From NCBI GenBank assembly GCA_964106915.2, contig OZ066919.1: 64,000 bases of DNA; one strand, written 5' to 3'. The notes beneath the pieces were generated by a model. The model was not told where the DNA came from. It was given only the letters and a program-made list of their open reading frames with translations, and ran no database searches. Of the stretch, positions 2,236-26,900 are shown one piece after another. This stretch comes from Podarcis gaigeae (lineage: Eukaryota). Both the position numbers and the translations under genes were made by a program. The first letter of the stretch is position 1; every line of letters starts with the position of its first letter.

Positions 2236-2497
2236 ATGTTGCGACAGAACGGTGGTGGCAACAAGCGTGGTTTAGGATTAACCAAACTGTCTACCTCCAA
2301 TTTCTTCACCATCTCTAATTCAGGAACCTGGGGGATGGGGCGCAGCACCAAGAGCAGTTCTTTGAGCAGCATTAGCTCCAACTCGGACTGCTATGACAGC
2401 ACTGTTGTGGACCCAGAGTACATCATGCAACTGGTGAATGATGTCAGGAAATTTGCAGATGTTCTACTTTATTTGAAAGAAGCCATTCTTTCAGAAG
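2236..2497 (+). CDS. ARHGAP29: ARHGAP29 coding exon 1 (MLRQNGGG...LLYLKEAILSE)
   Basis: ATG in GGGATGT context; donor GAAG|GTGTGT, phase 1. Confidence 0.88.
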
Positions 2498-5400
2498 GTG
2501 TGTCAGCTGCTTCTCAATAACTCCCAATAGTTTGAAATGTATTTTTGTAGCTAATTTCTTACTTGCTAGCATATGAGCAAAGAAATGTTTAGAAGGAACA
2601 GTGGCTGTCTTCTCTTGAGTATATTTTGCGGTATACAGGAAGTTGTGGTTTTTACTTTGCTAACTTCCTCTGTGAAACATTGAGCAAGTTGTTTTGTAAA
2701 TGGGCACGTCATAAACAAAATTAAACTTCCCTTTTTTTAAAAAAAACCTTTAAAAATTGGCATCTGGTAAAAATGGAAAAATGTTTAGACTCACTGACTT
2801 CTTTTGAGATAGATTTTTTTTTCTTGAGGGGGTAGTGGCACCATCGTTTGTTAAGCAGTGGCGAAAAGACTGGTGGCAGTGTTGTAGCTTTGGATTTCCT
2901 GATTAAGCAGCAGAGGTTTGGACTAGATGGCTTGCAAAGCCCCATTGAATTCTTAGGATTCTGTTTCATACCTCTGAGCTAAATTATGCCAATCTTCCCA
3001 TTGTTTTGGTTCTGATGTAAATGGGTAAGAAGCAGGCTGATTATACTTGCTCTACTGGTGATGTACAGTAGTATGATTAAGACTAGGGAAGGGGAAACCT
3101 TTTCATCCGTAGAGTCACATTTCCTTTTGGTCAGCTTTCTTGGGCCCATTTCTATTGATAGGTGGAGCAAGAGGCAAAAATGAGTGAAGCAATACCGTTG
3201 AACAATTTGCTAGTTTCTTCGCACCCGCACATCCCCCTCCATCTAGGCAAGCAAGAAACATTATTGGAGTTCCACGAACACATTCCAGCCCTGTAAAAAC
3301 ACCAAATGAGGGTGCAAAAGAGGGCTGGGGAGGGGTGTGTGACCTGGCGAAAGTTCTGAGGGCTTGACAGAGGGGCCTGGAAGGCTGTGTTTGGTTGCTG
3401 GGCCTGAAGTTTCCCATCCCTGATTTAGGTCTGATTTTATACTGATTTAGCTTGTGGGTAACTAGCTAAACATCTCTTACGTTCCTGTTTGAGCTGAAAT
3501 TGAATATCAGTTTTTCTTACAAAATACATTTAAAATAAATTCATAGCCTATTTCAGGAGAATGCTTAAACAGTTGCTCTGTAAAATGAGTGAAGTAGGTC
3601 AGAGTAGCGCTTACTTGAAATAAGGAAAAAAATCCAACAGAAATAAATATAACTTATAATATTGCAGATGTTGAAACTTTCAAGTGGGGATACTGTTTCT
3701 TCATTGTATCCTCTGCGGAGTAAGAACTGAATCCTTCAGACAAGTAGTTTTCAGTACTTAATGGAACATAATATTCATAATATAGGTAAATAAGAAGCTG
3801 GTACCAGCTAACCTGTTATGAATTCCTTTCTAGGAATATTTTCTTTCTTTCTTTCTTTGTAGTAGATTCAAAGCGAGCATTGTGCTTTATAGACCTGTAC
3901 CTTAGCAGAATAAATTTCTGAGAAGATCTGCCAAATGCCCAGTGAGATTGCTTTTGAGCAACAATGATACATTTTCCTCACTTTTTATGCTGCTGTCAAC
4001 AAATCAACAAGAAGTGTGCTCTTATTCTTTTGTTTGAATTCAAAAGTCCCACTTTCTTGCCAATGTATTATAGCAGCTTTGCCTCATCCAACTGAATTAA
4101 GTATATTTATCCTTCTGCTTTTAAAATCAGAACTTTTCTAAGCTTTACATCTTAAAGGAACACAAAGCCATCATACCTATACATGGGCTTTGTTGCAGAA
4201 TCAGCAAACAACACTATCCCATTGTCTCGAGAGCAAGATCTAGATTGTTAGGCATCAGTGAGATCTAAACAATACACTATGAGTATGAAACTTGTTTCTG
4301 TGCATTAAGACTTATTTCCTAACAGTTTCCCCCCACTTTTTTAGGATGTCTGAGATTCTGTTAATCAGCATACAGTTCTCCATTTAGGAGACTTCTGTGC
4401 TTTAGGGGAAATAGTGCTGTCAAAAGGAATTCTCTGTGTTGTATCCTAAAGCAGCATTTGTACCCATAACCTAGTCTTGACTTACGAGTCATGGTACTAA
4501 AATGTAAACACAGATGATTTGTAGCTCCTAGAAAATTTAAGTGAGAAAATGCATGATCCTGTGCTTATAGGTTTTTAACTGCAAGTTTGTGTCTCTGTGC
4601 CTTTATTTATGTGAAGGGCAGCTTTGGTTGTGAGCCCTACTTGTACATGCCTGTGCAGTGCCAACAGATAAATATTCAAAATACATTGAATTTCCTACTT
4701 GGTCCAGTAATGGTGTGGATTTGGTTGTAGAATGAGGTTAAAATTATTTGGATTGGAGATACTGAAATGGGGGACTGCAAGAATTCAAAGTGAGGGTTGC
4801 TGAATGTCTTGCTTACTTCATCTTTTTGCCCCACTCCTTTGCATAACTTCCATAGACAGAAGAAGAAGGTGATGTGGAAGTAGTGATAAATTCTGCTGGC
4901 TATTGCCTCTGAACTCATAATGTTGATGTTTGGCCTCAAATAAAGAATGCAGCCTGTGCATTCTCTTGAGTTTGGCTCTGGCAGATCAGTACAAATGATA
5001 GCTAGGCATTACTTAGTGAACATGGACCAAATTTTCCTAGTCACCCAAACCTTTTAGCTGCATGGCTTTTGATTTTGATGAAGTTTGAGGATTTGGTGGG
5101 AGTTCCATTCTTTCAGTAAGTACAAGTTGTCACTACTACTGCCTAATTGCCATCCTTGGTTGTATATGTTCACACAGGCTATAGATAGGCAGAATAGGAT
5201 TCCGACTCAGTTGCTTTGATATGGGTGTGTTGTGGATCATGTTGTGGATAGTGAAAGTGAAGAATACTTTGGAGGGTGATGTGTGTTGCCATAGACTTTA
5301 CAGCCTTGCTGTTCTGTGATGTAAAATTGAGCATATGTGGTGGTCATATTTAACACATACTCCATAAGGTATGATTTTGAATAATGTTGTTTGGCTTGGT

Positions 5401-8400
5401 GATCTATATTGTAGAGGCATGGAATTGTTTGAAACCCCAATCACTGCTTTTTCCACCATACTGATTAATGTCCAAATAGCTCAAAACCAGTTACTAATGT
5501 TGAAGTTGAAATTAATAGGTGGGCTTAATAATACAAACAAGGAAATGCCAATTTATGAATGGAAATGCCAGTTTATACAAAAAAAATTCCTTCCAGTAGC
5601 ACCTTAAAGACCAACTAAGTTAGTTCTTGGTATGAGCTTTCGTGTGCATGCACACTTCTTCAGATACACAGTTTATGAATGTGGATTCATAAATGACAGT
5701 ATTCCCTGAAACTTGGAATAAAATACTCCTAAATTTGTTTTAGTTACATTTGTATCCCATCCTTCTGCCAGGAAGCTCAGAACAAGTTGTAGTTGGGTCA
5801 GGTAAATTTGGTGCAGGATATAGTTACTCTACTTGATTAAAATCACCTTATGAACTTTATAGCTAATCAGAGCTTTGTCCATATCCGTGGCTAATATTCT
5901 GGTCAATTTATGTCACTGCTGCTAAATGTGAGGGCTGCTGAATAGATTGAGCCGTTTGAGAAAGGAAAGAATTGAGTAGTAGTGGAAGAACAGGGAGTTA
6001 TTGTGCTTTTAACCATTAACCTTTAAAGATTTAATGGTTTTTAATTAAGCTTTTAATCTAGTGACATTTTCAGCTAAAACTTATATGCTGTTAGGATTTT
6101 AGTATGGAGCAGGTTAAAACTCTTAAAGTAAGTACATTGAAAGTTCCTAAAATTTTAGCATCATCTTCAGAGCATGGGGTATGCAAGTAGATTCAATTAA
6201 TTTATATGCTGATCAATATGTTTCTATCATGGTCATTTTGGCAGCATTATGCATTTATTTGGTTAACTTAATATGCATCACTAAAAAAGGTAAAATCACT
6301 GATCACTCTGCTTCAATGTGAACTGGTACACAGCGCTAAACCAGGGTTTATTAAACTATGGTTTATTAAACCCTTATTTGTTTCTTAGTAAACAAACCAG
6401 AGTTAAGCTTTCAAAAAGCACAAAGTGAAACAGTAGTTTGTTGGCTTATGAATCTTGGTTTGTTTTAATTATGGTTTTGCATAACATGAACATATAACCC
6501 TTCCTTAATAACCATGGTTTGTTTGGCCACCTGACACCCAGACACTCACCAAGGCTACAAAGGCACATGGTAAGAGCTGCTTGGAAATAATTCAAATTTA
6601 AGAGAAAGAAGCCATGGGTTTTTTTTCATTTGCTGGAAAACTTATTGGATAAACTTGTGGTTTGTTCATGAAACCTTGGTTTGTGTTGTGTGAACCAGGC
6701 CATTTCTGTTTAAAAAAGTTTACTCCTATTCTCCAGTGACTCTGTAGCCATGGCATTGGTGATATGACCTGAAACAACCGTGGCTCAGTGACAGAGCATC
6801 TGCTTTGCATGCAGAAGGACCTAGGTTCAATCTGCTGCATCACTAGGTATAGCTTGGAATGTCCCTAGTCTGAAACTATGGAGATCTGCTGGCAGTCAGC
6901 ATAAACAAATCTGAACTCAGTGGATCAATAGCCTGATTCATATAAGACAGCTTCTAAGGATGAGGGGAAACCCCAGATTATCAAAATCTTTGAAGTTGTG
7001 TGGAACCTGACCTCAGTTTTTTTTTTGGGGGGGGAGGGTTGGCATAATTGGGCCACAATGAAGAATTAAAAGCAAGGGAAAATAAAATCCTGATCTATAT
7101 GATCATTGTTGGAGGATTCCTGCTCCCATCCCTTCTCACTATGTGCTTTTAAACTATGTGCTTTTTAAGAGTTGTTTCCTCTAGGGTGTAGTGTATGCCT
7201 GTGAATTTCCTCCACAGAAGTACCAAGCATAGTATTGCCTCTCCAAGAGAATGTAATTACAAATAAATCAGCAAATTAACACTTTTCTCACAACCAATAA
7301 TTATAAAACAATGAGGTAAAACTACGGCTCATCAAATCATATTTTATGTAATAGTCACAGACGTCTAGGTTATCAGTAAACCAGACACCCTCCAGTATCA
7401 TCAGGACTTTTACATGGTATGGATTGGCTGCATATCATTATAGGTGCTTCAGATATTATAATATCTGGAAAGCTCTCTTTAGGGTTTGATTATGCTGAGT
7501 AGGACACAGACACCGAATGACAGCTACTTAGAATTCCAATTTGAAAAACAGAGTGTTGTGCAATCTAGAGTGTAGTGAATATATAAAGCTGTGAATGATA
7601 GAGTTGGAAAAGACCTTGAGAGTCATTTAGTCCAACCCCCTGCAATGCAGAAATCTAATCAAATCATTGCTGGGTATGAAATTAATTCTGTGGCTCTTCT
7701 GATACATTGGGTGATTTTTATTGAGTAAGGACATGGTACCACTCCAAGATTAAAATTCACCTGACCATTGGACTGCTTGGTATTGTTGCATGTGCTTTCT
7801 GTATGTGTGGCTGGCTCTGTACAGCTACCATTATGTGCTTTATTAAATTTATTGAATGCTGCTAGGAGTGGATAAGGGATGCGGGTGGCGCTGTGGGTTA
7901 AACCACAGAGCCTAGGACTTGCCGATCAGAAGGTTGGCGGTTCGAATCCCCGTGACGGGGTGAGCTCCTGTTGTTCGGTCCCTGCTCCTGCCCACCTAGC
8001 AGTTCGAAAGCACGTCAAAGTGCAAGTAGATAAATAGGTACCGCTCCGGCAGGAAGGTAAACGGCGTTTCTGTGCGCTGCCCTGGTTTGCCAGAAGCAGC
8101 TTAGTCATGCTGGCCACATGACCTGGAAGCTGTATGCCGGCTCCCTCGACCAATAAAGCGAGATGAGCGCGCAACCCCAGAGTCGGTCACGACTGGACCT
8201 AATGGTCAGGGGTCCCTTTACCTTTACTAGGAGTGGATAAAGTCAATTCTGCTTGTGACTGAATTGCAAGAGGCAACCACAAGTTCCAATGACTCAGTGA
8301 AAATTGCTCCATTATGTATCCCATGAGTTCTGTTCTTCAGACCTTTTGATAACTAGTAAGTGAAGACTTCTGAATATTTCTTCAATTCCTGTAGCTCTCT

Positions 8401-11400
8401 TATGGTGCTTGAAGCTTTGTTTATGCCTGTCTGTGTCTTTAAGGTAACATGGGGCATCCCACACATGCTTCCTTGACAGAGGGAAACTCCAGGCCAAAGG
8501 AATTTTATTGATATATCCAGCACCTGCAAATATCGTTACAGTGGTAACCATAAACCTACGTTTGGTGACCAGTGGAGAGAACATCTAAATATACTTTCTT
8601 ATTGGATTAACATGTTGGAAAATAACTGTGAACAGTTCTGAGAGATTGATTATGCCTCTTTCCAAAAATACTATCAGGCTAGACTGAGATTCTGCAATAG
8701 TGTGGTGCCTACAAGGCTTGGCACAAATACCTGCACATCCTTCCCAGCAAGCCTCTGTAAAAACCCAGGCAAAATTACCTGGCAAAAGAACCTCACCGCA
8801 AGTGGAAAAAGAAACATGAGTGTCAAGCCATTGTGGCTACTAGAAAAAATGTTTGCCAGCAAACATTTGGGGATCTCTGGTAGGGGATTATTTGGGAATA
8901 CATTTTAAGTTGATGTAGATTTAGGTAAATATATCAGTGTTAGCCTCAAGTGTTGAAGGCCCACATTCTCCGTATTCAGATAATTTCAAGAGTATATTGA
9001 ATAATATAGCTATGTTTAAATGATTCAGATTAAATCTATGTACTATCAAAATTACCTGCGAAATCCATGCAATAAATGATAGCTTAGAGTTCCAATTAAC
9101 TTTTAAGTCTCACAATCTAGCTGACTTAAATTGTGATCACCTCCCCTTCCCCCAATCGCATACTCTGCATTCCTTCTGAACAAATGTTCACTTGTTGCTA
9201 TAGTGTCAAAGATCAACAGTTGGTAGGGGTATGTTTCATGAGCAAGTGTAGTTAAGCATTTAAACTCAACTCCTGTGGAACTTTTAATACATTTTTAACT
9301 TAAAATGTATTCTAGAATAGTATTATTAATGCAAGAAACTTTGTTAGCAGTGTTTTGACTCATTCCTATTTTCAGTTTTAAAATACAGTAAATTTTACAC
9401 CATTCCCTTTACTTTTTTCAAAAGATGCATGAAAAAGCATTGAAAATTACTCTTATTCAAAATGCCATATTTTTAGCTTTCATAATTTGTCAGAATTTTT
9501 TAAAAAATCTGAAACTGGTACACTCTGAGGCTTTTTAACAAAATGTGGCCCTTGGGAGACTTCTGTAATTTAGTAAAACAATTTCCTTAGGAATATTACA
9601 TTCCTGTATGTATACATATATTAAAGCCTGTATTAATTTTAAAATGGTGTTCGCCACCATTCATGCAAACAGATCCCAGGGACCTGTGTAGAACTTATCA
9701 TCTAAGGTATGTTTTATGCAGTTTTTTGAGTGAATAATTAAGGGTGGTGAGTAATCTCTCTGAAATTTGATTGTATAGCTGTTAGCATTGTCTTCAAATA
9801 TAGGAACATCCTATAGGAACAGCAGGCAGGGGTGGGACTGGCGTGCGTCCCAGGGGTGTGGCGCACATCCTGTGGGCATGGCGCCCAGCGCAGGTGGGCA
9901 AAAACAATGGCACCCCACCGAGATCGCACTGCTGGGGTGGTGCGCTCTCCCCGCACTCTTCTTCCTCTGCCAGCGTATAGGAACATCCACTTAGCTTGGG
10001 TAAACCCCCATTAAACTCAGTAAGAGGTACTTGAGTAGACTCACAGGATTTTGCTCTTAGGGAAGAAGGAGGGTGAAGCAAAATGCTTTCAGGAAGAACT
10101 TTTAAGTACATGCTTATCTTGCCCATTGAAACCGGTTTGATTTGGAAGTGCTTCATTTTACTTAGATTATACCTACGAGTTTTGAATACTGGAAATTGGG
10201 TAAAATCTTCTTTGACTCTCACTCATTTTTATTACTGTCTAACATTAATTCAAAGGACGTGTAATAACTTGGAACACTTCCATCTTGGTGCTCCTTCATT
10301 AAAACTATAAGTAGGTAGATCTAGTATGTGGTGTTACTGTGTACTCAACCTGACACTCACCATGCAGCTGTTTCCTCAAATTAGGAAACATTACTTGGAT
10401 AAATATTTGCACTGGCATTTCATGTCAACAGTAAGCTGAGTAGGAGATAATTTACTATATATAATTTTTGTGGCATTACATGCCTTCAAAATAGGATAAG
10501 ATACAACTCATCTAGAGCACCAGTGATGACTATTCCATGCCACTAGTTAACTGTCCCTGGGAAGACTTGCAGTGGTATGCAAAACTTAAATAGATGTCGT
10601 CAGTAAGAGACCAGCCATATGTAGATACTATAAAACGCTTCTTGAGTTTACAGAGTATCACAATATAAAACTGCATTTTGTTCAGGAAAATTAATTATAC
10701 CAAATACAGCAGCTAATTTTTTTTTAGTAACCTGTAGTTGCACCTGTTTATGTTTCATATGAGAAATATTATCATATAATATTGTGTTAACTTTACACCA
10801 GCCTAGGTGTGTGATCCCGAAAGCGGTTTCTAAATAAATGAGTAAAGAATTAAATGGTGGTTTTCAGCCATATGCTGTACTATTACTGAAAGTCCACCTG
10901 AATGTTCTTCATTTAGACAGTTTCATCCAAGAGGTTCTTTACATTAGAACCTCCATTATGGATGTTATTTAGCTGTTAAATATTACAATGAATCTGGAAA
11001 ACTCTTTGCAGATGGAAAGCTGTTATGAAGAGGATTCATTTTAAAAAATTAAGTGCTAAAGGAGGCACTTTCCTGTGGGTTTATCCCATGGTGCATCTGT
11101 AGAGCCTGTAGCCACCTGGTCAGGACCAATCAAGTGAGTCTTTCCCACAGAACTGGCATCCTGCCACAGCTTTGTTTTTAAATATTGCAGGAGTGCTGTG
11201 TGATAAGCCTAGAGAAAAACTTGTCTTGCAGTACTCCACAGTTTTTTTTTTAAACGGTGCTTTGTGAGTGTAAAGTTCGGGAAAGAACTGGACCTCATCT
11301 CTTGCCTTTCAATAAAATTTGATGGTTCTTTACATAGCATTTTGAGATGCCTCTCACCACTTGGTCTAACACTTAGCTTACTTAAAAGCATACTGTGTGT

Positions 11401-14400
11401 TATCTTGCTGCTGGAAAGATTGTTACAATTTGGGGGAACTGGTACACTATCAAACAGGAGCAGTGTTATGTTTTTGCAATTAAAATTGTAAAATAAAGAC
11501 TCTTACAAGTTCTTGGGATTTAGTGGGATACACATTTTTTAAGACAGCCTTAAATTTGAGTCCTCAAAGTTGAGATACTTCAAGTTAGCATACAGCTATC
11601 AAGTTAGAATAGTGTTATTTTAGAATTTTGCTGCTTGAAGTCTCAAGAAGTTCTTCCCTACTTGTCCTTCCGCTGGCAGGTGAAGGATCATCTTATTTCT
11701 GAAGGCTTTTAGGAACTATCTATTTCCAAGGAAAGGGCTAGTGCTGTGATTTTATTATAGTTGCTATTATCTGTATTTTAGTAGATCTTTTTATATATAT
11801 TGTTTAATTTTATTAGTGTTTAATTAGTTTTAAATGATTTTTAAAATTGTAGATTATAATTAATTAATTCCAGACAAGCTGCGATCTGGAGGCCACCTTT
11901 AAGCCATGTTTTCCCACTTGTGTGAAAGAAAGTTCAAAGTGGTTGTGCACAAATGTGTGAAGCTCTGGTTTATAAAGCCACAAAATGTACAGAGCAGGTC
12001 AAGAACACAGCATTGTTTTAACTGAAATGGGATTGTTAGCCAATTGTCAGCCAATCCAATCATGCTTTGTATATGAAAATAGTAATAGGTCAATTAGTTT
12101 GAAACTTCTTAATGAAACTTCAGATACCATAGTTATTATGCCTTTGGACCATTTGCTGCATATAAAAAGTCAGAAGTGTTGTTAAAAATAAAGCATTATG
12201 CATAGACCCTGAAAGTTTTTGCTGCAAAGTAGTAAATAGAAAAAGCCTTTTAGGCAGGTTAAGGCAACCCCCTCAGGTAGCAAATGTTGGCATATTCACA
12301 AGTGGAGTCAAATTTTCATTTATTTGGTTTGTTCTTATCAGCGTTATATTTTCTGCTGCAGGCAGCAAAATATCTTGGGCTACCTCTGTAGTAAGATACT
12401 ACTTAAGGTTGACAAAGCAAAGTCCACCTCTTTATTAACACTCTAATCCCATAATCCTTGCTTTGTGTGGTCTTTGCTTAGGTAGACTGGAAGAGAATAG
12501 CCTTTTCGTTTATTCAGTTGCTTAGAAAATGGGAAAGTACAGGACAAATGACAGGTTAGAATGCTAAAAAAGTCAAATATTAAATTCAAACATTAATTTT
12601 GACACACACACACCTGTGTGTGTCTGTGTGTGTGTGTTGTGACTTGATTCTATTTCTACTTTACCTTGTATTTAACTTTTGAATACTATGTTGAGTTTGA
12701 AAGTAGATTTTTTTAAAAAACATTTTTTAAAAACAATTATAGCTCATTAACAATTTATGTAGTAATGTTGTTGGGCATATACATATGTTTTTGTTGAGGG
12801 TGTGTTACTCCAGATGGCTTCCCAATGTGGCACAAAGGGCTGTGTTTGGGAAGGAAAATCAACAACCTCCTCTCCAGCAAGAAGTAGTTTTTTCTGCTGG
12901 CATCTACTGTTCTTTAGATCCCATTCTCAATTTTTTAAAGGATTCAATCTAGCTGAAGACCCGAATTTCTGGAAATAAGTTCTGCGGGTGAAAAGTGAAC
13001 ATATGATTAGCTGTACCATTTTGAAAGCAATGGAGCTTTGTATTTACTTTAAAAAAGAGCACCACCTATCTAAATCTGGCACTGGGAGTCAGATTTTTGT
13101 GACTCTGAAGTTTAATGTTGGCCATGAGACCAACTAGTGTTTCTGGATTTTGGCAGCCTTTTGATAAAACAGGTTAATACTTGAAAACCTTAACCTATGC
13201 AGTAGAGCTTTTTTTTTTTTTTACTTGAAAGCAAGTAGCAGTTCAAAGTCTAAATAAGCTGTTCAAAAATAGTAAGAGTACAAGCCTGCCCACAGAGGAC
13301 ACCCTACATGCATGAATATACAGCAGTTGGGGCTACTGGGGTCAGTGGGAGGGAGATCTGTAAACTTCTGTGTCCCCATACAGCCCTTCTCTGCTTGCTG
13401 CATGGTCTGGTGGATCAATAACTTATATCAAGGTGAGAGAGAGAGGATTGGATGAAGATACTGAAGACATGCACAGACCTCTCATTCACCCTGATGGATT
13501 GCTGTGCTTCATGTGCTTCCTTAGGGAGAGAAAAACAGGACTCTGAAATCTTGGAAATGCTATATGTATAACTGACAGAATTGTTCTATAAGTTGTTGGC
13601 TAAAAATATATATATAAAATGGAACGGTGTTATACTATATGACAGTTGATGACTGACTACCGTTGTGTGGTGCCGATAATACTATAAAAATGTGAGTGAA
13701 GAACTGTGAGGAAATGCAAACTGCTTACAGTTTGAACGTAGATAGCTACTTAAATAAGCTTTGTTCCTTAATGGAGCTTCAAAATGGCTTTCTGTTTATT
13801 TTGCATTAGAATTTCTGAACACTCCACATCAGGTAAACAAAATTCCAGAAATCACTCCTTGGTAATAGCACTCATTTTTAAAAGCCTAATTTTAGAGAGA
13901 AGTTGCTAAATTGGATATTATATTGCTTAGCTTGCCTAAATGCATCTGGGTTGGATGAGACTGGAATATTAAGGCATATAAAATTCAAGAAGTTAAAGGA
14001 ATGAGGCATAGAACATTTTGAAATTGATGAAAAGCAGCATTGTGGCAGTGCTTCCTCCCCAGTGGAGAGTTGCTCCGTAAATTTAAATGTGAATGTGGAA
14101 GAACTGGCTTGCTGGTGTTTGACAAGTTGCCTTACTGAAATACTGAATTGCTTGAGGAAAACTAAGAATAAGGCATTTTTCAAGGATAAACCATAGTTGA
14201 CAGCACATATCTCTTGCTGTATCTTAAAAACCCTTAAATATTGGTGTTACATTTTGGTTGAAGTAATGGTCGCATGGTACTCAAGACTGAATTCCACAGT
14301 GTGAGAAAAGGAGACACCTGTTGATCCAGTGTACTCAAATCATTGAAATTTCCATATTCGGAAGATGCTTGCAACAATAAGTTCCTAAACTCGCAGCTAC

Positions 14401-17400
14401 AAATCTGCAGCATAGAAGTGCTGTGGTGTTTATAAACCTGTTGGCCTGTAGCTGTCCCACATAAATATTGTAATGAGTTTTTCACTCAGTGAGAGAAGTA
14501 AACATGACAGTTCTGAACAGCTTCAGGTACATTTTAAGAGATGGAATGGCAGACCTTCCTAGGATCACATTTATGCCACCTTGGGTTCCATGTAGGAAGA
14601 AAGGTTTATTTCTAATTTATATGTAAGAAATAAATTGTATTGCATAAAAAAAATAAATTCCCAGAGATAATTGGTCAGTTACAGGTTGCTTTTTTATAAG
14701 GTCTTCTTTTGATATGTGAGTCAAGATAATATAATAGGATCTTATTTTGCAGTAATCAGTGTTACATGTTAATCATCTCTTCTATGCATTGACAACACAT
14801 AACTTTGGTTCTCAAAGCATTGCACAGGCTACCCATACACTTCTGGGCCAGATTCAGAGTTCTTGCATTAATTTACAAGGCCCTAACAACTTGGGTCCAG
14901 GATACCTCAAGGACTGTCTAAACCAGGCTTCCTCAAACTCGGCCCTCCATATGTTTTGAGACTACAATTCCCATCATCCCTGACCCTAGTGGTCAGGGAT
15001 CATGGAAGTTGCAGGCTGAAAACATCTGGAGGGCCAAGTTTGAGGAAACCTGGCCTAAACCCTTACATCCCTGCCCAATCACTAAGGTTGAAGAGCAGGC
15101 TGGTCCAACTTTTCATACCAAGTGGACTGTAAGTGTACTTTGACACTGTCTTGTGCTGCACACCAGGGGCGGAGAGGCCAAAATTTGACACCCTGCCCAC
15201 ATTCTGACTTTTCAAAGCCAGGAAAGTGAGGCACCGAGATTGGAAGGATAACTAGGCCTGACTTAACTTGACTTTGGAAAGGCAGCACAAGTGTTGCTGG
15301 GGCCTGGGGGAATGCCAGCCAAACTTCAAGGAAGCAACTATTAGTGGTCTCCCGGGGCTCAGAAACATTGTACTCATGAGAATCTCTGTGTTCAGCATTG
15401 TCGCCCAGTTTTGTGGAACTCCCTTCCGGTTGAGTTCAGTTGAATTTGCAGTCCCTACCAATGCTTTTAAAAAAATTTCAATAGGACTTTTGATTAAGGT
15501 CTAGATTTAATGTTTTAACTGTTTAAAAATCTTTTTTCCATAATTTATGTGCATCCCTTTTAAATGTTTGCAGTTAAGCAGTACATAAATTGTGTAAAGA
15601 AATAATTCATAAATGTTCAGAAGCAGCTTTTGAGCACCAGCTGTGTAGAAAAGGCAGTTACAATGCCTGTGAATATTTAGAGGCATCTATCTGGCTGCTG
15701 TAGACGCATATTGCTGGACTAAATGGTCCTTTTATCTGATCCATCAATGCATTGGTCTTTGAGTGGATATTTTCCCTCTTATTGCATTGCAGTTATCTGT
15801 ACAGTGGGTTACATACACTTCAGGTTACAGATTCCGCTAACCCAGAAATATTACCTTGGGTTAAGAACTTTGTTTCAGGATGAGAACAGAAATTGTGCAG
15901 CGGCGGCACAGTGGGAGGCCCCATTAGCTAAAGTGGTACTTCAGGTTAAGAACAGTTTCAGGTTAAGAACGGACCTCCGGAACGAATTAAGTACTTAACC
16001 CGAGGTACCACTGTACTGCTGTTTTGCTGGTTTCGTTATTGATGGATTTTGTGGTTTTACTTTATGATTTTAATATAATTTGTACTTGTTATAATTGGGA
16101 TAGTTTTGTAGTGTGCCTTTGGACCCTTTGCTGGACAAATAAACATTAAACATTTTCATGATCAGCAGACTTTCTTGCACTTAGGCTGAACTTCATTGGC
16201 TAATTATAATCTTGTACAGAACTCCCTTATGTCTACTAATAACTGGACAACTGAGTAACTCCAAGTTACCCAAACCTAAAACTGCTCAGGCTTCTAAATA
16301 AATTTTTGGTAGGTGTATACAGCTTTGTGTTTTGCCTTGTGAAATAAGCTCACTAGTGTGTTGGCTGCAAATAAAAAATTGAAAATGTCTATTAAAAGTT
16401 TGTTAACCTCATTTATACAAACAAATCTTCCACTTGTTAATGCAATTAAATGTGTTGGAAGTGATTCTCATTTCATATAATACTTGTCAGCTTCCTATCA
16501 TTTTTTACACAATTGATTGTTAGATATATTTAATTCATGTGGAAAGGTAGGCTATTTCCAAAATGATCCACTCAATACTCAAGTAAAATATGTTCCAGTA
16601 ACTGAAAGTTCAAGTAAATAAAAGGATTAGAGCTTCCAGAAGTTTTCTTCCTGACAATAGGGCACTTATTGTTTGAGACTTAGGATGTTTTGATCTGGTA
16701 ATGTTATTACAAGGCAGCTTTTGACTTGGTGATAGTATGCTACAGCTAAAGGGAAGAGTGTATTTAGTACAGAAGACTTAAGTTTTCATTACTTTGGAAA
16801 GCCCTTGCCCCTCATGTCTTTTGTCATATGTGTCTGATATTGTCCATCTTTTGCCCTTGAGGGAATCATCCACACCTACCTTTCCTCTGCTCTTTCCAGG
16901 CATGGTCTGTTCTTTAAAAGTTCTGTTTCCAAATGCCCCCCTTTTTTTGCTCCGTGGCTTTCCCTGTGAAAACTCATTCTTTATAGCTCAATCAGAGCCT
17001 TTGCAAACCTGATCTTAGGGTCAATTTAAACATTTATCAGAATTGGGTGGTAAAACTTTTCCTGGATAGTTATTTTGCAGCTGAGGGCAACACATGTTTG
17101 AATGCCTTCCATATAAAGTACATACATCCACTCACCCATCCACACAAAACCTAGCGTTCTAAGGAAAGGTGTTCAACCGCAGCTATCTCTATTTTATGCT
17201 AACTTGCTTTGTGCAGGTAAAGGTAAAGGGACCCCTGACCATTAGGTTCAGTCAAGGCCGACTTTGGGGTTGCGGTGCTCATCTCGCTTTATTGGCCGAG
17301 GGAGCTGGCGTACAGCTTCTGGGCCATGTGGCCAGCATGACTAAGCCACTTCTGGTGAACCAGAGCAGCGCATGGAAACGCCGTTTACCTTCCTGCCGGA

Positions 17401-20400
17401 GCGGTACCTATTTATCTACTTGCACTTTTGACGTGCTTTTGAACTGCTAGGTTGGCAGGAGCAGGGACCGAGCAACGGGAGCTCACCCCATCACGGGGAT
17501 TCGAACCGCCGAACCTCTGATCGGCAAGTCCTAGGCTCTGTGGTTAAACCCACAGTGCCACCCGTGTCCCATTTTGTGCAGGTAGGAGAACATTAAAATA
17601 TGCAGCCTGAAGTAATAGAGTATTAAGAAAAGCAGTGTCTCCCAAGTTTTGATCCCAGCTGGTCCTGGGGTCTCTTAGCTACAGATGCCAGTTATATAAC
17701 CTGGGATATTGCTTATACATGCAAAGCATTAACTGTATACTATAAGCTGCTAAGTTGTGGCTGTGCTACTGCAACCAAATAGGTGACTCTATAGAAGCTC
17801 CATTCACTATTAGTACTATAAGTTTCCAAATTATTGTCCAGATTTCATTGTTTCAGTGTTTGCAACAAAAAGGCAAATCTTTTGGTATTGTCAAGATTAT
17901 TTTGTGTTATAACAGCAAAACTTCAAAGTGAGTCAGTACCTTCGAAGCAAGGCAGAATTACATCATAGAATTACAGCTATGTCCTCCTTTTGCAAAAGAG
18001 AGCAACAGATCCCTGACTGGTTTGAGCCCACCATTTAAAGGACATTGAGCCTGTTATTGCTGCAAAGCACTAGGCTCTTGTGAGCTGCAAGCATGTGTCA
18101 TGCAAAAAGAGGCAAGGAGCGATGTCCAGCAGATTGCCAGACAATTTGCCAGCAACTGTTGGCCAAAGCCCCTGGATAGGACAGGATCCCAACAGACGTG
18201 CTGAAAGCCGGCTTCAGTTCCTTCCTCATGATACACCTCCACAGCCACCTCTTGCAGTGTTGAGAACAAGGATCCGTGCCACAAGACATGTGCGACTCCA
18301 GCATTGTGACCCTCTAAAAGAGCAAATGTTACTTCCATGACTATAACTACCATGGAATCTCCCTGTTGAGTACTGTGGGGAAAGCCTTTGCTTGTGTAGA
18401 TCTCAACATATTACAGTCACTCATTAGCAGGGTCCTTTCCCAAGTCAATGTGTCTTTAGAGCTCAGAGGTCAACATGATTTTCTCATTGCATCAGCTACA
18501 GGAGAAATGCTAAGAGTAGAGATGTCCCTTGTATGTTGCCTTCATAGACCTGATGAAGGCTTTTGACCTCTTCAGCCACTAATCAGCAAGACATTCCCAG
18601 TATGTCTTGCTGATCCTGTCTCAGCGACATCTAGGCTGGCTTGGTCATGTCAACAGAATAAAATATGGTAGGATCCCCAGGGATGTGCTCTATAGGGAGC
18701 TAGCTTCAGGCACAAGGCCTGTTACAAAAATGTCTGCACATAAGACATGAAGGCACATGGCAACTTCAACCCTGCCATGTGGGAATCCCTTGCAGATGAC
18801 TACAGTGCCTGGAGACAATCAGATTGTGTATCCACAGCAGTGACCAGAGGAGGAATGACCATTGGGAGGAGCATAGGAAGAATAAACACCATGGTGCATC
18901 TGCAGCAGCACAACTGGACACCTTCATCTGCCCCCGCTGCAAGAAAACATGTCTCTCCCATATCAGTCTCTGCAGCCACAGCAGACGCTGTAACTCTCAA
19001 ATGGTTTTACTTCACCCTCAAAAGTGCACTCCTCTATTGTCTCTGAGACACAATGGTGAGAAGCGTGAAAGGGTTGCTGAAAGGAAATTTGCACATTTCA
19101 TACACATTGCATTTTGCACACGTAATCGTGCAGGTACATACTTCAACTTAATATTCCTCATGGCTTTCACCTCATGTACACATGATGTGAGACTTCCAGT
19201 TTGAAACTTCTCAAAGTTATTTTGAAGCATTTTTTTCAAATAGAACATCTTGATGCCAGCAACTATTTGGGGGTTTTCAGTCACTTTTATTCCAAAATCT
19301 AGATACAGCTACTATTTATACATAACACATTAGTCAAAATAGTCAGCTATTCAGTTTGATATTGTGGTATTACAAAATAACTAAATGTTTTTAACTATAA
19401 TGTGGATTTTTATACAGAAGGCCAGTTATAATAAAGCACCAATTTCCAGATCCAGGTAGACTTTCTAAAACAAATTCATTATTTATTGATGGTTTTCTGC
19501 ATAGTGTAGCTTTTATGCATGTGAGACAGAAATATGTACGTACATCTTCAGATTTGTTTCCCCCCCCCTCCAGTGAAAATAAAAGAAACACTCTTTTCCT
19601 TGCTTAGGATTCCTTTCCATTTTAGTTCCATTAGTATTCAGTAATGTGCAGCTAATAGTTAGTGTTTTCATGACTCTCCATTAATCTAAAAGTATTTATA
19701 GCATTATTTGTATCATTTGTACAGGAAAAGAATGCAGGTGGCTTTCTGGTCAATTTTGTTGTGAGTGTATGTTCCCTAATTTTCTAGAGAACATTCAGTA
19801 TAGTGTAGTGTGTTCTTTCCCTTGGGGAAATTGTGTGATGAGTTAAACTTGGATTTTTTCCAATAGTTGCAGATCTGTGTGTCAGACAGCAGCAACACAA
19901 TTCATTGTTTGATCATTTTTGCTAAGTCTGCAATGTTCATTGGGGAGTTTCAAATGCAGAATCAACCTGGATTGTTTTATGTATTTTGTACTTTAAAGGA
20001 TCTGCTAATTACTTTATTTGTCCCAGTGCTATTTTAGTTATTAGAAAAATTATATTTCCATGTTTTAATATTTTCAAGCATCTAGTTTCAGCGTGTTTGT
20101 TCTTCCTTTTAAATATTGATTTATAATGTCAAACTTTATCCCCCCCCCATGTCTAGGTTGGGGTCGGGGAGAGAAAATTGAGGTGCTGTGACTTGGACTA
20201 TATTGAACATTTCAACTTTGTAATAACTAAATTAGAATTAAAATTTGAAGGTTTACATTAAAAATCTCAAACGTTCAGAGAGGATGTGCATTTATGGTAG
20301 AGATTTTCATCTATACCTATACCTATCTCTTCCTATACCTGGCTCCCTGTGATACAAGTTTGTCAATGTGCTCTTAAATTAGAAAATAGGTTGCAATGCA

Positions 20401-21194
20401 GCATGGCTGACTGATCAGGTGCAGAGAGTAAGAAAGGTTCTCTGAATCAGGACATACCATATTTTCCCGTGTATAACCCCTACCCCCGTGTATAAGACTT
20501 CCCCCTATCTCCGTCCCTCTGGGGGGACATTGCTCACCCCTGCCTGACCAACACTGCTAAATGAACACGGTGCAGAAGCCGCCAGTTGCCTGCCCAATTG
20601 CAGCTACAGCAACCAATCGACAGCAACACTTGCCGCAGCCACCAATCAGCCACCCTATCATCGCTGACAATCTCCTGCTCGTGGCACAAACCAATCCCCT
20701 GTCCCCACTCTGCACTATCCATGTATAAGACGAGTCCCAATTTTAAAAGGTATATTATCATTAAAAAACCCTCATCTTATACACAGAAAAGTATGGTAGA
20801 TCTGAAAGTGACAGACATGGCTGTGAAGTAAGTGGCTTTGAGTTCAATTTCATCCACACATCCACCACTGGTTTAGAGGCGATAACTCTATAATCTTGTT
20901 TATGCATACTTGCTATTCCCACAATATGACAGGGAGAGAGATTTTGGGTTTACAGTTAAAAATCAATTCAATGTGAACCAATAGTTTTGGGCTGGGGATC
21001 AAAAACCCTATTTATTTTTAGGTTACATTAATGAGAACATGATTTCTGAAGTGTTATTGCACCCAAGCCTGGTAAGATCATATTGAGAGTAGAGCTCTTA
21101 TGTAGGCACTAGAAATGAGAAAAGTCAGAGATGCAAAAGCAGTGGCCATTTGTTTTCAGGTCAGGGGACACATTGACCCATGGTCAACCCTGGG

Positions 21195-21228
<34 letters not shown>

Positions 21229-23921
21229 AAGTGCAAAATTAGGTGAGGCAAAAGTGTAAAAGTGGGTATGGTGAGAACTGCAGTTCTCAAGTCTACCTTC
21301 TCAGAGGCTTTTCCAGCAACGATTCTACATTATATTTGAATCATTTTTATTATTCATTATTAATTTGGTAAAAATATTTTTAAAGAACTAATTTACAGGG
21401 GGTCTTGGACTCACACCCTTTTGACATCATCCATGGGTGATAGATTGTTTGAGTCTCATAAACAGTGTCTAGCAAAAGAAGACCTGGCTTATACAACAGT
21501 GCTTTTCTCAACTGCATGTAATGTAATTGAAACTGACTTGGCAGGAAGTTGTGTTGAAGCTGACAAGCTTGATTATGGAACTTTATTTTGTGTTTGGATG
21601 GGCGGAATCTATTAACTGTGAGGCCATTATTGTAAGTTAATATTTGTTAGACAAAGGTATTCCAATTGGAAAGCAGGTAAATTGTGTGTTTAACAACAAC
21701 TTGGGGCTTCTGTGTCTGAAACTGGAAAATAATTGCAGCATCTCAACAAGTTTTTTAAGATTATCAACTGACATTTGATTCTTGCTATCTGATGTGTAAA
21801 ACCTTACTAAAATTTCATGATATTTTAACTGAAAAGGTCAAAGCCTTTCTAGTACACTACTTGTGTGGTAAAGCATTTATTGTTTTCTACATGATAATAT
21901 TTCCATAAAGGAATTATTTATGGGAAATGTTTTATACAGTATCGTAATGTTTCAGCTTCAAACATTGGAAGGCTGAATTGTTGTTCTAGGACCTGAATAT
22001 GTGGAAATTTATTCAGAGGTGGAATTTTCACCATCCTGTTCCTCCCTGGCTTACTCTAATAAAGTAGTTTTGTCTTTTTTGCTTGTGATTTTTCTGTTGA
22101 AGTTTCATTCAGGAAGGCCATCGTTTTGCCTTGCTAAATCTAGACTTGTGAATAAAAGAAAGGGTTATGGTGCCAAAGCAAATTGGAATGCAGGTAAAGT
22201 TTCAAAACTAGAATTTCTGTATTGCAGATATTTCCTCAAATTCCCATTTGTTTTAGCTATGCCCATAATTTGTTTCATTCAGGAAGATATTTTATCGTGC
22301 TGTGTTTAATTTTGTCTGGCTGAACAGGTTAAAGTTGTTGGTTGTAGTGCAGGTCTAGTTTTTTCCATACTAGTTATTACATATAAATTATTATTTACAC
22401 TGTTCTTCAATGCATAGTATTATAAGCCAATAACAGTAAAACAGTCTGATTCTAAAACAGTAAGTTCCTCAATATGCATAATTATATTTCTTATCCCATG
22501 TCAAGACATGGCAGGAGTCGGTATGGTTGCACCTGCAGAGACCCATGGCCTAGGAGAAGCCCTACCACTGACCAAAGACAGTGGGACGATATCACAATTA
22601 TTGATGAGTGAAATGGCAGGTGAAAGCAGAGCAAACAAATAATAATAGTAATAAAAATAATAAAAATATTTTATTATTATTAATAATAATACCCCACCCA
22701 TCTGGCTGGGTTTTCCCAGCCACTGAATATTAAAAACAATACAGCATCAAACATTAAAAACTTCCCTAAACAGTTGTCTTTTAAAAGTAAAATAGTTGCT
22801 TATTGCAACTATTTTGCAATATACTATTGCAATAGTTGCTTATTATCCAGAGATTTATGCTTTGATACTAGTTCTAGGCCTCTTTTCAATGAGAAATGGA
22901 GGCAAAGCAACTATGGAATTATGAGTGGCTGAACTTTAGGAAAACTGGGAGTTGGGTCAAATGTCTACCCTCCATGGAGGTGACCTTGGGGAAAGAGGTT
23001 CTCCTGTTGGATATGGGGTACCCCCAAAACAGGTTTGCCAAGGGCATCCCTTCCAAACAACTCAATAGGCCAAACAATAGAGAAACACTATCTTACCTAA
23101 ATTCAGTATGTCAATTTTTGCCTGCCCCCTCAGTTTGACCTGTGGCATCCTTTGAAAGCAGCCCGAAAGGCATTGCAATAGGTGTTTGAAGAACATAATA
23201 AGATTCTGCAGTATCAAACCAATGGCCCATTTAGTCCAATATCCTCTTCTCATAGTGGACAACCAGATGCCCATGGGAAGCTCAAAACCAGGACCTGAGT
23301 GTAACGGCATCCTCCCAACTTGCAATTTCTATAGGGGGCTGGTTTGAGGAAGTCTGCTTGACTGGGAATTCTCCCTTCCTCCAAACATTAGCAGGATACT
23401 CTTTAGGGCAAAAGGGTACTTGCAGGGGTTGGGTTGAAGTAGTTGTTCAAAGCAGGGCATAGCCAGGGTTCTTGCTCTGGTTTTAATCAGAACTGCAGAG
23501 AATTATTGAGCTTCTGATACTTGCATTTCCCTTTGAGGTGAGCAAAATGAGCTCAAGAAGCTCATTTTTGGGCCTTAGCCTGGTGGACCTTGCCAGTATC
23601 TGTTTACAAAAGCTTGTATCTGGATAGGCAGTTTTCACCATTATTGATTTTTTCCATTTAGCAGACACCGAGTAACTCTTGTTCGCTGTGTGATGTACAG
23701 AAACTTCTGAAAACAATTTAAAGTTAGGAAATCCATATAAAACAATTAAACATAATTCAGTAAAGCATTCAAGTTCTTTTTAACAATAACACTTTGCTGG
23801 TACTGCTTTTTAAGTCCCCTTTAGTAGGGCAACATGACTATCTGTGCCTTCCAAAATCCCTACTTCTACATATCTGCTGTACAAGAACCCTATTATTGAA
23901 TATATCCCCTTGAATATATAA

Positions 23922-23957
<36 letters not shown>

Positions 23958-26900
23958 TGTGTTACACCTTTGATTTTAGTTTTTCAGTGTCTTTGTGTAG
24001 TGAGGAGTTGATCCATTGTTCTGGCTAACAGCTTAAGCAATTAATAAAATACTGCTACCTCTTTAAATGACCTCAAGCCTGATTGATGCAAAGTTTTATG
24101 CTGGAATAGTGCCAGACCCACAAGTACATGCTTCTGGTTCCATTGCTTTCACTGGAGGCCCAAGTGTCCTCAGTGGTGAGGACTGCTCATCACAAGCTTC
24201 AACTAGTACACCAGTGATGCCTGTTTCTGGATAGGATTAGCTTAGCCAACTAGAACTAATACATTAGTAACCTCAAGACTGCGCCAGTTTGTGTGGCTAC
24301 CCTTAAGGCTGGTTTGGAAGTTGCAGCTGACCCAGAATGAAGTGGCTTGGTTGCTGAGTGAGGGGCCTTTCCCAGCATGTATAACACATGTGCTGAAAGA
24401 GCTGCACTGCTTGCTGGTTTGTTAGCAAGCTGGGTTAAAGGTTATTTTATGAACATGTAAGGCCCCAAATAGCTCAATATAAGATTACCTGAAAGAGCAT
24501 CTCTCCCCGCTTCCGCCACCCTATAGACTCATTATATCACTACTGTGGCTGAAGGAGACCCTGTTGGTTGTGTTGCAACCTGCAGAGTTCCGTTTTGAGG
24601 CAACATGGATATGGGCCTTTATCTGTGGTTGCACCTGTGCTGTGGAATGAACTTCTCTCTGCAGTATGGCAGGCAGAAACAATGATCTATGTCCATTGCT
24701 TATTTTTCCTCTTCGCCCAATGCTTTCGCTCACCATTGATGCCAGTTTTTAATGACTATAGTACTGTAATGATGGTCTTCTATTTTTTTATGGATATGTT
24801 TTTTTTCTTTGTTGCATTCTTTTACTGTTGAATGCTGTTTTGGGATTCTTAAAAATGATAGAAATGTTTATTAAATAATACATCTGATATCTCCAATTAC
24901 TCCTGCGCTGCCTTTCCAAAGAACTGTAGAATTGTACCCCAAATGATTCTTTACGCTCTGTTTGAAATGCAACACTTGTTCTTACACATTTCAAGCAGGA
25001 ACTAGTTTATGAAGGCAAAATAGATCTGGTCCACATGACTAAACTTTCATGATATCAGAGGTAAAACATATTTACAGTGCTTCATGTAGATTTTTATAGT
25101 TAAATATTTTTTTCTTTCCTTTTCAGAAAAACAAGATTGTCTGCATCATGTTGTTCATGAACGTTTGGGCGAACTCCTGCGTGTGCTAAAGGCAATCATT
25201 AGCAAGCACCAATGTCTTAATTCAGTTGATATTCTAAGTGCTGCAGGAACAGTCATCGCAAAAGTGAAAGGTAAGGAAAAGGAGAAATTTTGCAACTTGA
25301 TATAGTAAGTAAAGTTGCCTTGTGATGTAATACAGATGTTGCTGTTAGCACTGTTAGCTCCTGTATTTACTTCCAGAGACACTCAACCATATAATTTGCC
25401 AGAGGAGGGAAATCCCAAACCAATCCCTCAGACATGTGGGGGACTGCTAAATGAGGAACAGAGCTATTCCTCTCTTGCTAGCACACAGCAGGTGCATGCT
25501 AGACTGCAAACTTTGTAGGCTTACAAAGTTAAATTAACACTGTTTTAAACAGCTCTGTACTACAACAGAACTGCGGGACTTAGCTTGTTCATAGTGATTC
25601 TGGAGGGATCTTTGTTTAATATTTCAGCTTATCCAAGTCTTTACTCAGACCAATACACTCAAATTGCTCAGTGAGAAAAAGGTCATTTACTGCTATAAAT
25701 TAAAAGTACCAGTCTATTTGTGTTGCATGTTTTCATTTAAGGCAGTGAGATTTATGTCTGTACAGGTAGCGACCATTGAAGACGCGTCCAGTTGGCGCGT
25801 GATTGCTAACACGTGGGTTATTTTGTACTCAGAAGAGGGCAGAATGGGGGCAGGGCAAGGTGTAATGGGCTGGGGAACACTCCGATGAAGCACACAGTAG
25901 CTGGGAACAGAATGCCTGTGCGGAATGGTCGCCACCTGTATTTGAAATATGTGATATGCTGGTAACTTGTATGTATATTGTTGTGTAGGATTGAAGCTAG
26001 ATGTACAGGGTTTATCAGCTTATTTGGAGGAACAGTTGTTGCATAACTTTGGGTTCAAGACGGGAAAGAGAAACCACAAGTGTAACAACAACTATGTTGT
26101 GAAACTGTTGTGAAACTGTGAGACTACTATTATTAACAAATAGCAGTTCTCAGGAGCTTTACTGATCATCAGCCAGTTCTCGAGAGTGTCATTTAATAAG
26201 CATGTTCAACCTAGCCTCTGCAAGATACTCAGACTTGGTTTTCCCCTTTAGCTGATCCTGGAGAAATTGAGACAGCTCTTTCCTTTTCTTGGGTCTAGAC
26301 CAGGGTTTCCCAAACTTCAATCTCCAGCTGTTGTTGGACTACAACTCTGATCAAGCCTAGTTAGCAGGGCCACTGGTCAGGGAAGATAGGAATTGTTGTC
26401 CAAAAACAGCTGGGGACCCAACCCAACCCTAGACTAAGGGTAGGGAACCTTACAGTTTCAAAGCCACATATCTAATGGCTAACCTTCAAGCTAGAGGCAC
26501 ATGCCAACAGTGGGTACGGTCAAAACAAAAATGGTAGAACCTATGTAGACAGGGCAGACTTGACAGAGTACATATGTCGTCATATGTGCATGGAGCACAT
26601 AGAATCACAGTTGAAAAGGACCCCAAGGGTCATCCTGTCCAATCCCCTGCAATGCACATCCATGCACATGCATGCAGTATGTTGCTTCCCCTCCCATAGC
26701 AATTAGACTTCACTTTTTAAACACATTATTCAAATCCACTTGTCAGTGGGGGATTTTTTAAAAATGAAGATTGCAGCTGGGAAGGGTTCTGTTGTTGGGT
26801 TCTGTTGGCTTTTTTCAAGCCAAATTGCTTGGGAGCAAGGGAATACTATGGGCCATATGGGGAGCCTTCATGGGCTCCATCTTCCCCATGGGCTCTTAGC

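What the first reader, a model, noticed from the sequence alone, without database searches (positions are those of the whole stretch)
5577..5668. Intact minimal hammerhead ribozyme in a 92-bp Penelope-like insert, antisense to ARHGAP29 intron 1
Seen: minus strand 5667-5630 reads GUAU-CUGAAGA-A-GUGUGCAUGCACAC-GAAA-GC-UC-AUAC. This gives a complete CUGANGA/GAAA/UH core, stem I GUAU:AUAC, a self-complementary stem II and a palindromic AGCU replacing stem III. Predicted cleavage is between 5634 and 5633. The insert is flanked by CAGTTTAT repeats and stops one base beyond the ribozyme. Known: Penelope-like retroelements carry minimal type I hammerheads that typically work as dimers. Inference: this is a solitary, insertion-delimited ribozyme unit. 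It cannot cut the sense pre-mRNA but could process antisense transcripts or pair in trans with other genomic copies.
Basis: partly seen in the sequence, partly recalled or inferred. Interest (0 to 1): 0.7.

Follow-up and report, generated by a model that had tools for sequence, protein, structure and literature searches.

The report
Young Penelope leader copy, capped-end stub
This small self-cutting-RNA motif is real but ordinary: it is one of more than 11,000 near-identical copies of the front end of a young Penelope-type jumping gene in a lizard genome, and it likely stops where it does because the copying enzyme ran off the capped start of the jumping gene's RNA, not because the ribozyme works on the host gene.

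Summary
The hammerhead, the 8-bp target duplication and the antisense place in ARHGAP29 are confirmed. Four related species have the clean empty site and a fifth also lacks the insert, so it is recent. The 34-nt core has 11,151 exact copies in this genome. The insert is 99% identical to the pseudo-LTR of a Neptune-type Penelope-like element (RT + GIY-YIG) and ends 7 nt before that element's start codon: it is the element's 5' leader. Its ends are family hotspots. In 100 copies picked by their 3' part, 25 begin within one base of this one and 1 begins at the cleavage site; genome-wide 6,480 versus at most 164. The hotspot lies 31 nt behind a TATA box and often carries an extra G, which points to a capped transcription start (inferred; no RNA data). 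So the insert is likely a run-off copy from an internal priming site to the RNA's 5' end. It has no promoter, no partner ribozyme within the window and faces away from the host RNA; it is intact because it is young. Known kind, low interest; only the cap-end pattern is a useful clue, and earlier notes of this scan already report it.

The parts
5577..5668 (-). 92-bp insert = 5' leader of a Neptune-type Penelope-like element
   Evidence: 98.9% identical over 91 nt to the pseudo-LTR of L185; absent from five related species
5630..5667 (-). minimal type I hammerhead (stem I 5667-5664 with 5633-5630; core; stem II 5655-5642; palindromic AGCU)
   Evidence: sequence; compensatory changes in stems I and II among 8 distinct sequences of related families
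5633..5634 (-). predicted cleavage site, after C17
   Evidence: hammerhead consensus; cleavage not tested; 1 of 100 copies begins here
5667..5669 (-). family 5'-end hotspot, inferred transcription start (5667)
   Evidence: loose ends at 5667 among the best supported in all 8 runs
5577..5590 (-). T-run 3' end, first of two family 3' ends (inferred priming site); the element's ATG would follow 7 nt later
   Evidence: 49 of 100 copies end before the ATG, 48 about 30-40 nt later; ORF start in L184
5569..5576 (+). target-site duplication, left copy
5669..5676 (+). target-site duplication, right copy
2497..25125 (+). host intron of ARHGAP29 (first after the first coding exon)
   Evidence: tblastn of P0001 on the window; splice sites seen

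Best explanation
The insert is a recent copy of the 5' leader of a high-copy Neptune-type Penelope-like retrotransposon, likely made when the element's reverse transcriptase primed inside its own RNA and ran off the RNA's capped 5' end, and it is probably inert at this locus. Shown: family identity, copy number, target duplication, empty sites, shared 5' and 3' ends, ATG just downstream. Inferred: (1) a TATA promoter in the pseudo-LTR starts the RNA at the first base of hammerhead stem I (window 5667); (2) the GIY-YIG domain nicks AT-rich DNA and the RT primes at the T-run or at the end of the 30-40 nt tail, as shown in vitro for an Anolis element; (3) priming at the copy of this site near the RNA's start gives only about 90 or 130 nt before the end, where the RT adds an untemplated base (often C opposite the cap, read as G); (4) the end joins the target by short microhomology, leaving an 8-bp duplication. 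The template was uncut RNA, so the ribozyme did not set the boundary. Without the TATA box, a second ribozyme or the element's protein, and antisense to the host gene, this copy would not be expected to cut anything.
For: 11,151 exact copies of the core, control 0. Upstream ORF with RVT_1 and GIY-YIG, 915 codons from the ATG. 25 of 100 copies anchored on the 3' part start at 5667-5669 equivalents; 25 of 80 ends in 3 of 118 positions, p about 1e-20. Genome-wide 27-mer counts: 3,131 at -4, 869 at -5, 2,480 at -6, 164 at the cleavage site, 3,673 running at least 16 nt upstream. TATA-like box starts at -35, 31 nt before -4. Base before the -4 end in the first 100 listed: G 72, A 17, C 11 (counted by hand); at the cleavage site G 27, A 24, T 49; G versus A p 0.0009; G before 12 of 62 other ends. 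23 of 30 copies that run into the ORF jump straight back to this same start, which needs a fixed RNA end. Two 3' ends, 49 and 48 of 100, as in PMC11167929. Extra 5' G is attributed to cap copying for L1/SVA (PMC3287187, passages).
Against: No RNA 5' end was observed; the start site rests on DNA junctions alone. The -6 class (2,480) is preceded by T in 79 of the first 100, not G, and the window copy starts at -5, so the cap-G rule does not cover all ends; T cannot be scored at -4 because it is the element's own base. The upstream sequence also reads as a 3' splice site ending at -6. The 100 copies are the first on one contig and include both halves of inverted pairs, so they are not independent. 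The genome-wide patterns cover different bases; the cleavage-site one misses subfamilies that vary there (variants at 27-41% of depth), so 164 may be about twofold low. D. virilis Penelope has a TATA-less internal promoter (PMC2377424, passages).
Confidence: 0.78

Rival explanations
1. The shared 5' end is a splice acceptor (branch-like motif, pyrimidine run, AG directly before -5): spliced RNA or a splicing product was the template.
For: The sequence before -5 in long copies looks like an acceptor; the window copy starts exactly at -5; in D. virilis the intron's end maps to helix I (PMC4209133, part 2).
Against: -4 starts outnumber -5 starts 3,131 to 869; no shared upstream exon in the 15 inspected -5 copies or 15 -6 copies; extra G at -4.
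Confidence: 0.1
2. The end is a structural stop or fold-back: the RT stalls at the hammerhead, or the cDNA end re-pairs through the self-complementary stem I.
For: 22 of 30 copies starting at -4 have an inverted element piece upstream; a smaller cluster of ends lies in palindromic stem II.
Against: An RT meets the 3' side of stem I first, and ends there are rare; 0 of 30 -4 junctions use stem I homology (one such case was seen); the same end appears in solo copies and in jumps from the ORF.
Confidence: 0.08
3. One reading: a retained solitary ribozyme that cuts an antisense ARHGAP29 RNA or pairs in trans with other copies.
For: Core intact; thousands of potential partners exist; the Anolis ribozyme cuts when its protein is present (PMC11167929, part 2).
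Against: Present in one species only; no promoter or second copy in 64 kb; single minimal hammerheads showed no cleavage and dimers little (PMC4209133, part 2); two copies are predicted to pair through stem II rather than AGCU; intact cores are the norm, 53 of 60.
Confidence: 0.04

Closest known systems
Minimal type I hammerheads of metazoan Penelope-like elements (Cervera and de la Pena 2014, PMC4209133; parts 1-2 of 4 read)
   Same: Core, 4-bp helix I, unpaired base before helix II, G10.1-C11.1, palindrome in place of helix III, thousands of single genomic copies from truncated elements, reported in turtles and snakes.
   Different: That text does not place the motif at a transcription start or describe a shared 5' end; copies here are highly uniform. 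Supplement alignments not seen.
EN+ Penelope-like elements, Neptune clade (Craig et al. 2021, PMC8557442; passages)
   Same: RT, CX2-5CxxC linker, C-terminal GIY-YIG, pseudo-LTR with hammerhead, optional 30-40 bp tail, inverted 5' copies.
   Different: The window holds only the 92-nt leader; no tree was built.
Anolis Poseidon PAc (Frangieh et al. 2024, PMC11167929; parts 1-2 of 4 and passages)
   Same: Two internal priming sites that bound the tail; uncut RNA is the main substrate; no reads ending at the cleavage site; AT-rich target.
   Different: Other clade; in PAc the ORF starts inside stem II, here 94 nt after the core's first C; cap, TATA or template jumps are not mentioned in its main text.
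Non-LTR retrozymes (bioRxiv 10.64898/2026.07.22.740005; parts 1 and 3 of 5)
   Same: Short, non-coding, hammerhead-bearing, derived from pseudo-LTRs.
   Different: Defined by tandem units each with a hammerhead; this is a single copy with a target duplication and does not start at the cut site.

Membership tests
PLE minimal hammerhead | CUGANGA / GAAA / UH core | tested here: met
PLE minimal hammerhead | short helix I, unpaired base before helix II, G10.1-C11.1, palindromic 15.2-16.2 | tested here: met
   8 cells with changes on both sides, 0 of 500 shuffles as high, only 8 distinct related sequences
PLE minimal hammerhead | located in the pseudo-LTR of a PLE | tested here: met
   follows the RT-EN ORF in 9 of 10 long copies; in L184 the 3' end is cut short
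PLE minimal hammerhead | self-cleavage as dimer or with protein | not testable with these tools
   needs an assay
EN+ PLE, Neptune clade (parent element) | single ORF with RT and C-terminal GIY-YIG | tested here: met
   PF00078 and PF01541 above cut-off
EN+ PLE, Neptune clade (parent element) | CX2-5CxxC zinc-finger-like linker between RT and EN | tested here: met
   one such motif at residue 775; feature from PMC8557442 passages
EN+ PLE, Neptune clade (parent element) | optional 30-40 bp tail and inverted 5' copies | tested here: met
EN+ PLE, Neptune clade (parent element) | RT phylogeny groups with Neptune | not tested
   no reference set; Nematis also has a linker motif
Non-LTR retrozyme | at least two tandem units with a complete hammerhead | tested here: not met
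   one copy in 64 kb
Non-LTR retrozyme | unit defined by self-cleavage / circular RNA | tested here: not met
   by DNA junctions only: 1 of 100 copies starts at the cut site; circles not testable

The most novel reading that the evidence does not exclude
Probability: 0.3. Interest if true: 0.55.

Novelty: new member of a known kind. Interest (0 to 1): 0.22.

Why it matters
The locus itself matters little: a species-specific intronic insertion, usable as a marker. The family pattern is a testable clue to two open questions named in the papers read, what PLE hammerheads are for and how tandems form: uncut, probably capped RNA is the template, and the ribozyme sits at the RNA's start. It also warns that an intact hammerhead with a sharp edge in a reptile intron is the default product of a young family, not a sign of co-option.

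Tried and rejected
Rfam scan: no hammerhead family matched. The first 30 loci were anchored at the ribozyme start and so biased; the 5'-end test was redone with a 3' anchor. One search used a reference that was too short (ends near -255 are an artefact); one search corrected it. Automatic target-duplication calling failed on most copies because of inversions and untemplated bases, so the extra G was shown to lie outside the duplication only in a few cases. Cleavage-defined ends: rejected; 12 of 30 inspected matches are point mutants of longer copies and the others share no upstream sequence beyond the element's own inverted pieces. Expression: no RNA holder listed; no RNA was laid, so transcription and the start site remain open. 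Literature searches listed no paper on this lizard family or on cap-ended PLE stubs; subscription papers, Repbase and supplements were not seen.

Full report
Observation. The minus strand 5667-5630 holds the minimal hammerhead as described, with C17 at 5634. The 8-nt repeat flanks the insert on both sides. A descriptor finds one hit in the window and none in 200 shuffles. Folding energy is not unusual and Rfam gives no hammerhead match. The host gene is ARHGAP29 on the + strand; the best protein match is from a Podarcis lizard at 99%, and its exons place the insert antisense in the 22.6-kb intron after the first coding exon.

Age. Contigs of four other organisms (B, C, D, F) skip exactly 100 nt with 8 ambiguous letters; organism E also lacks the insert but has another local deletion; three runs of organism A (two samples) carry insert letters joined to the flank. 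So it is a true 92-bp insertion with an 8-bp target duplication, seen in one species of six.

Identity. The 34-nt core has 11,151 exact copies and a 25-nt piece from the 3' part 13,261. Longer copies run upstream into an ORF with GIY-YIG; locus L184 holds a full 915-codon frame with RT, a CX2-5CxxC linker and GIY-YIG, the layout of Neptune-type Penelope-like elements (PMC8557442, passages). The insert matches the pseudo-LTR of L185 at 98.9%. The ORF's ATG lies in the 'tail', 7 nt past the point where the window copy ends. The insert is therefore the element's 5' leader. Related older families in the genome change both sides of pairs in stems I and II (8 distinct sequences), so the fold has been kept at the family level.

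Ends. Counting from the core's first C as 0 (window 5663), 100 copies chosen by their 3' part start as follows: 20 beyond -60, 10 at -60 to -8, 1 at -7, 25 at -6 to -4, 8 at -3 to 0, 22 at +1 to +28, 2 at +29 to +31 (1 at the cut site, +30), 12 further on. These are the first 100 matches on one contig and include inverted pairs. Genome-wide counts with 27-letter patterns agree: 3,131 at -4, 869 at -5, 2,480 at -6, 164 at +30, and 3,673 reaching at least -16; 12 of 30 inspected +30 matches are only point mutants, and that pattern may undercount about twofold. In all 8 sequencing runs position 5667 is among the best-supported loose ends and its consensus begins with C on the + strand, that is G on the element strand. 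3' ends are bimodal, 49 before the ATG and 48 at the tail's end, as for the two internal priming sites of the Anolis element (PMC11167929, parts 1-2).

Why a transcription start. A TATA-like box begins 31 nt before -4 (spacing judged from my own knowledge of RNA polymerase II promoters; a TATA plus initiator was also noted in rotifer pseudo-LTRs, PMC3846280, passages). The base before -4 ends is G in 72 of the first 100 listed, against A 17 and C 11, while it is G in 12 of 62 other ends. An extra 5' G is attributed to copying of the cap in L1 and SVA insertions (PMC3287187, passages). Of 30 copies, out of 206, that continue into the ORF, 23 break off after a variable stretch and join this same start: a fixed end on one side and a variable one on the other is what a template jump from an RNA end gives. 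Against: no RNA was seen; the -6 class is preceded by T in 79 of 100, which needs an added step (an untemplated A and realignment, inferred); the upstream sequence also resembles a splice acceptor; and D. virilis Penelope uses a TATA-less promoter (PMC2377424, passages).

Function at this locus. The copy lacks the TATA box and the ORF, is the only piece of the family in the window, and lacks the upstream bases predicted to extend stem I. Single minimal hammerheads did not cut in vitro and dimers cut poorly (PMC4209133, part 2); the Anolis one needed its protein and uncut RNA was the main substrate (PMC11167929, part 2); 1 of 9 Xenopus dimers cut (bioRxiv 10.64898/2026.07.22.740005, part 3). 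An intact core is usual, 53 of 60 whole copies, with G12 to A the commonest loss (6). Nothing suggests selection here. Antisense transcription was not tested.

Novelty. The ribozyme kind and the element kind are in print. My searches listed no paper on cap-ended PLE stubs, but supplements, Repbase and subscription papers were not seen. After I had reached this reading, earlier notes of this scan turned out to report the same pattern in other genomes; they are unchecked AI notes, not independent support, and they lower the news value. One other note reports U6 joined at PLE cut sites in another genome; the 30 cut-site matches inspected here showed no shared foreign upstream sequence.

Verdict: real, recent, ordinary insertion of a known kind; interest 0.22.

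Noticed in passing
window 5541-5576 and 5677-5680: The target was the second unit of a 20-bp tandem duplication (one mismatch) in the intron.
   Followed up: partly
window 6779-6837 +: tRNA-like stretch below the Rfam cut-off (23.4 bits, E 0.08), probably the head of a tRNA-derived SINE.
   Followed up: no
L194-L223: 23 of 30 copies that run into the ORF stop some 40-90 nt past the search anchor and join the leader start head to tail; may mark a further priming or jump zone.
   Followed up: partly
L224-L238 and one search list: 2,480 copies start at -6, mostly with T before; some show extra GT repeats, which could be slippage on the RNA's first two bases.
   Followed up: partly
L184 (G000:C17:90944500-90954400): A full 915-codon Neptune-type frame whose upstream piece lacks the hammerhead and whose 3' pseudo-LTR is cut short, beside an unrelated 1,272-codon open frame that was not identified.
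   Followed up: partly
L256, L259, L262, L265, L268, L270, L271, L272: Older related hammerhead families with different stems; several appear to begin near stem I as well.
   Followed up: partly
window 5576-5701, run X10: Organism E lacks the insert and has a small separate deletion at the same site.
   Followed up: no
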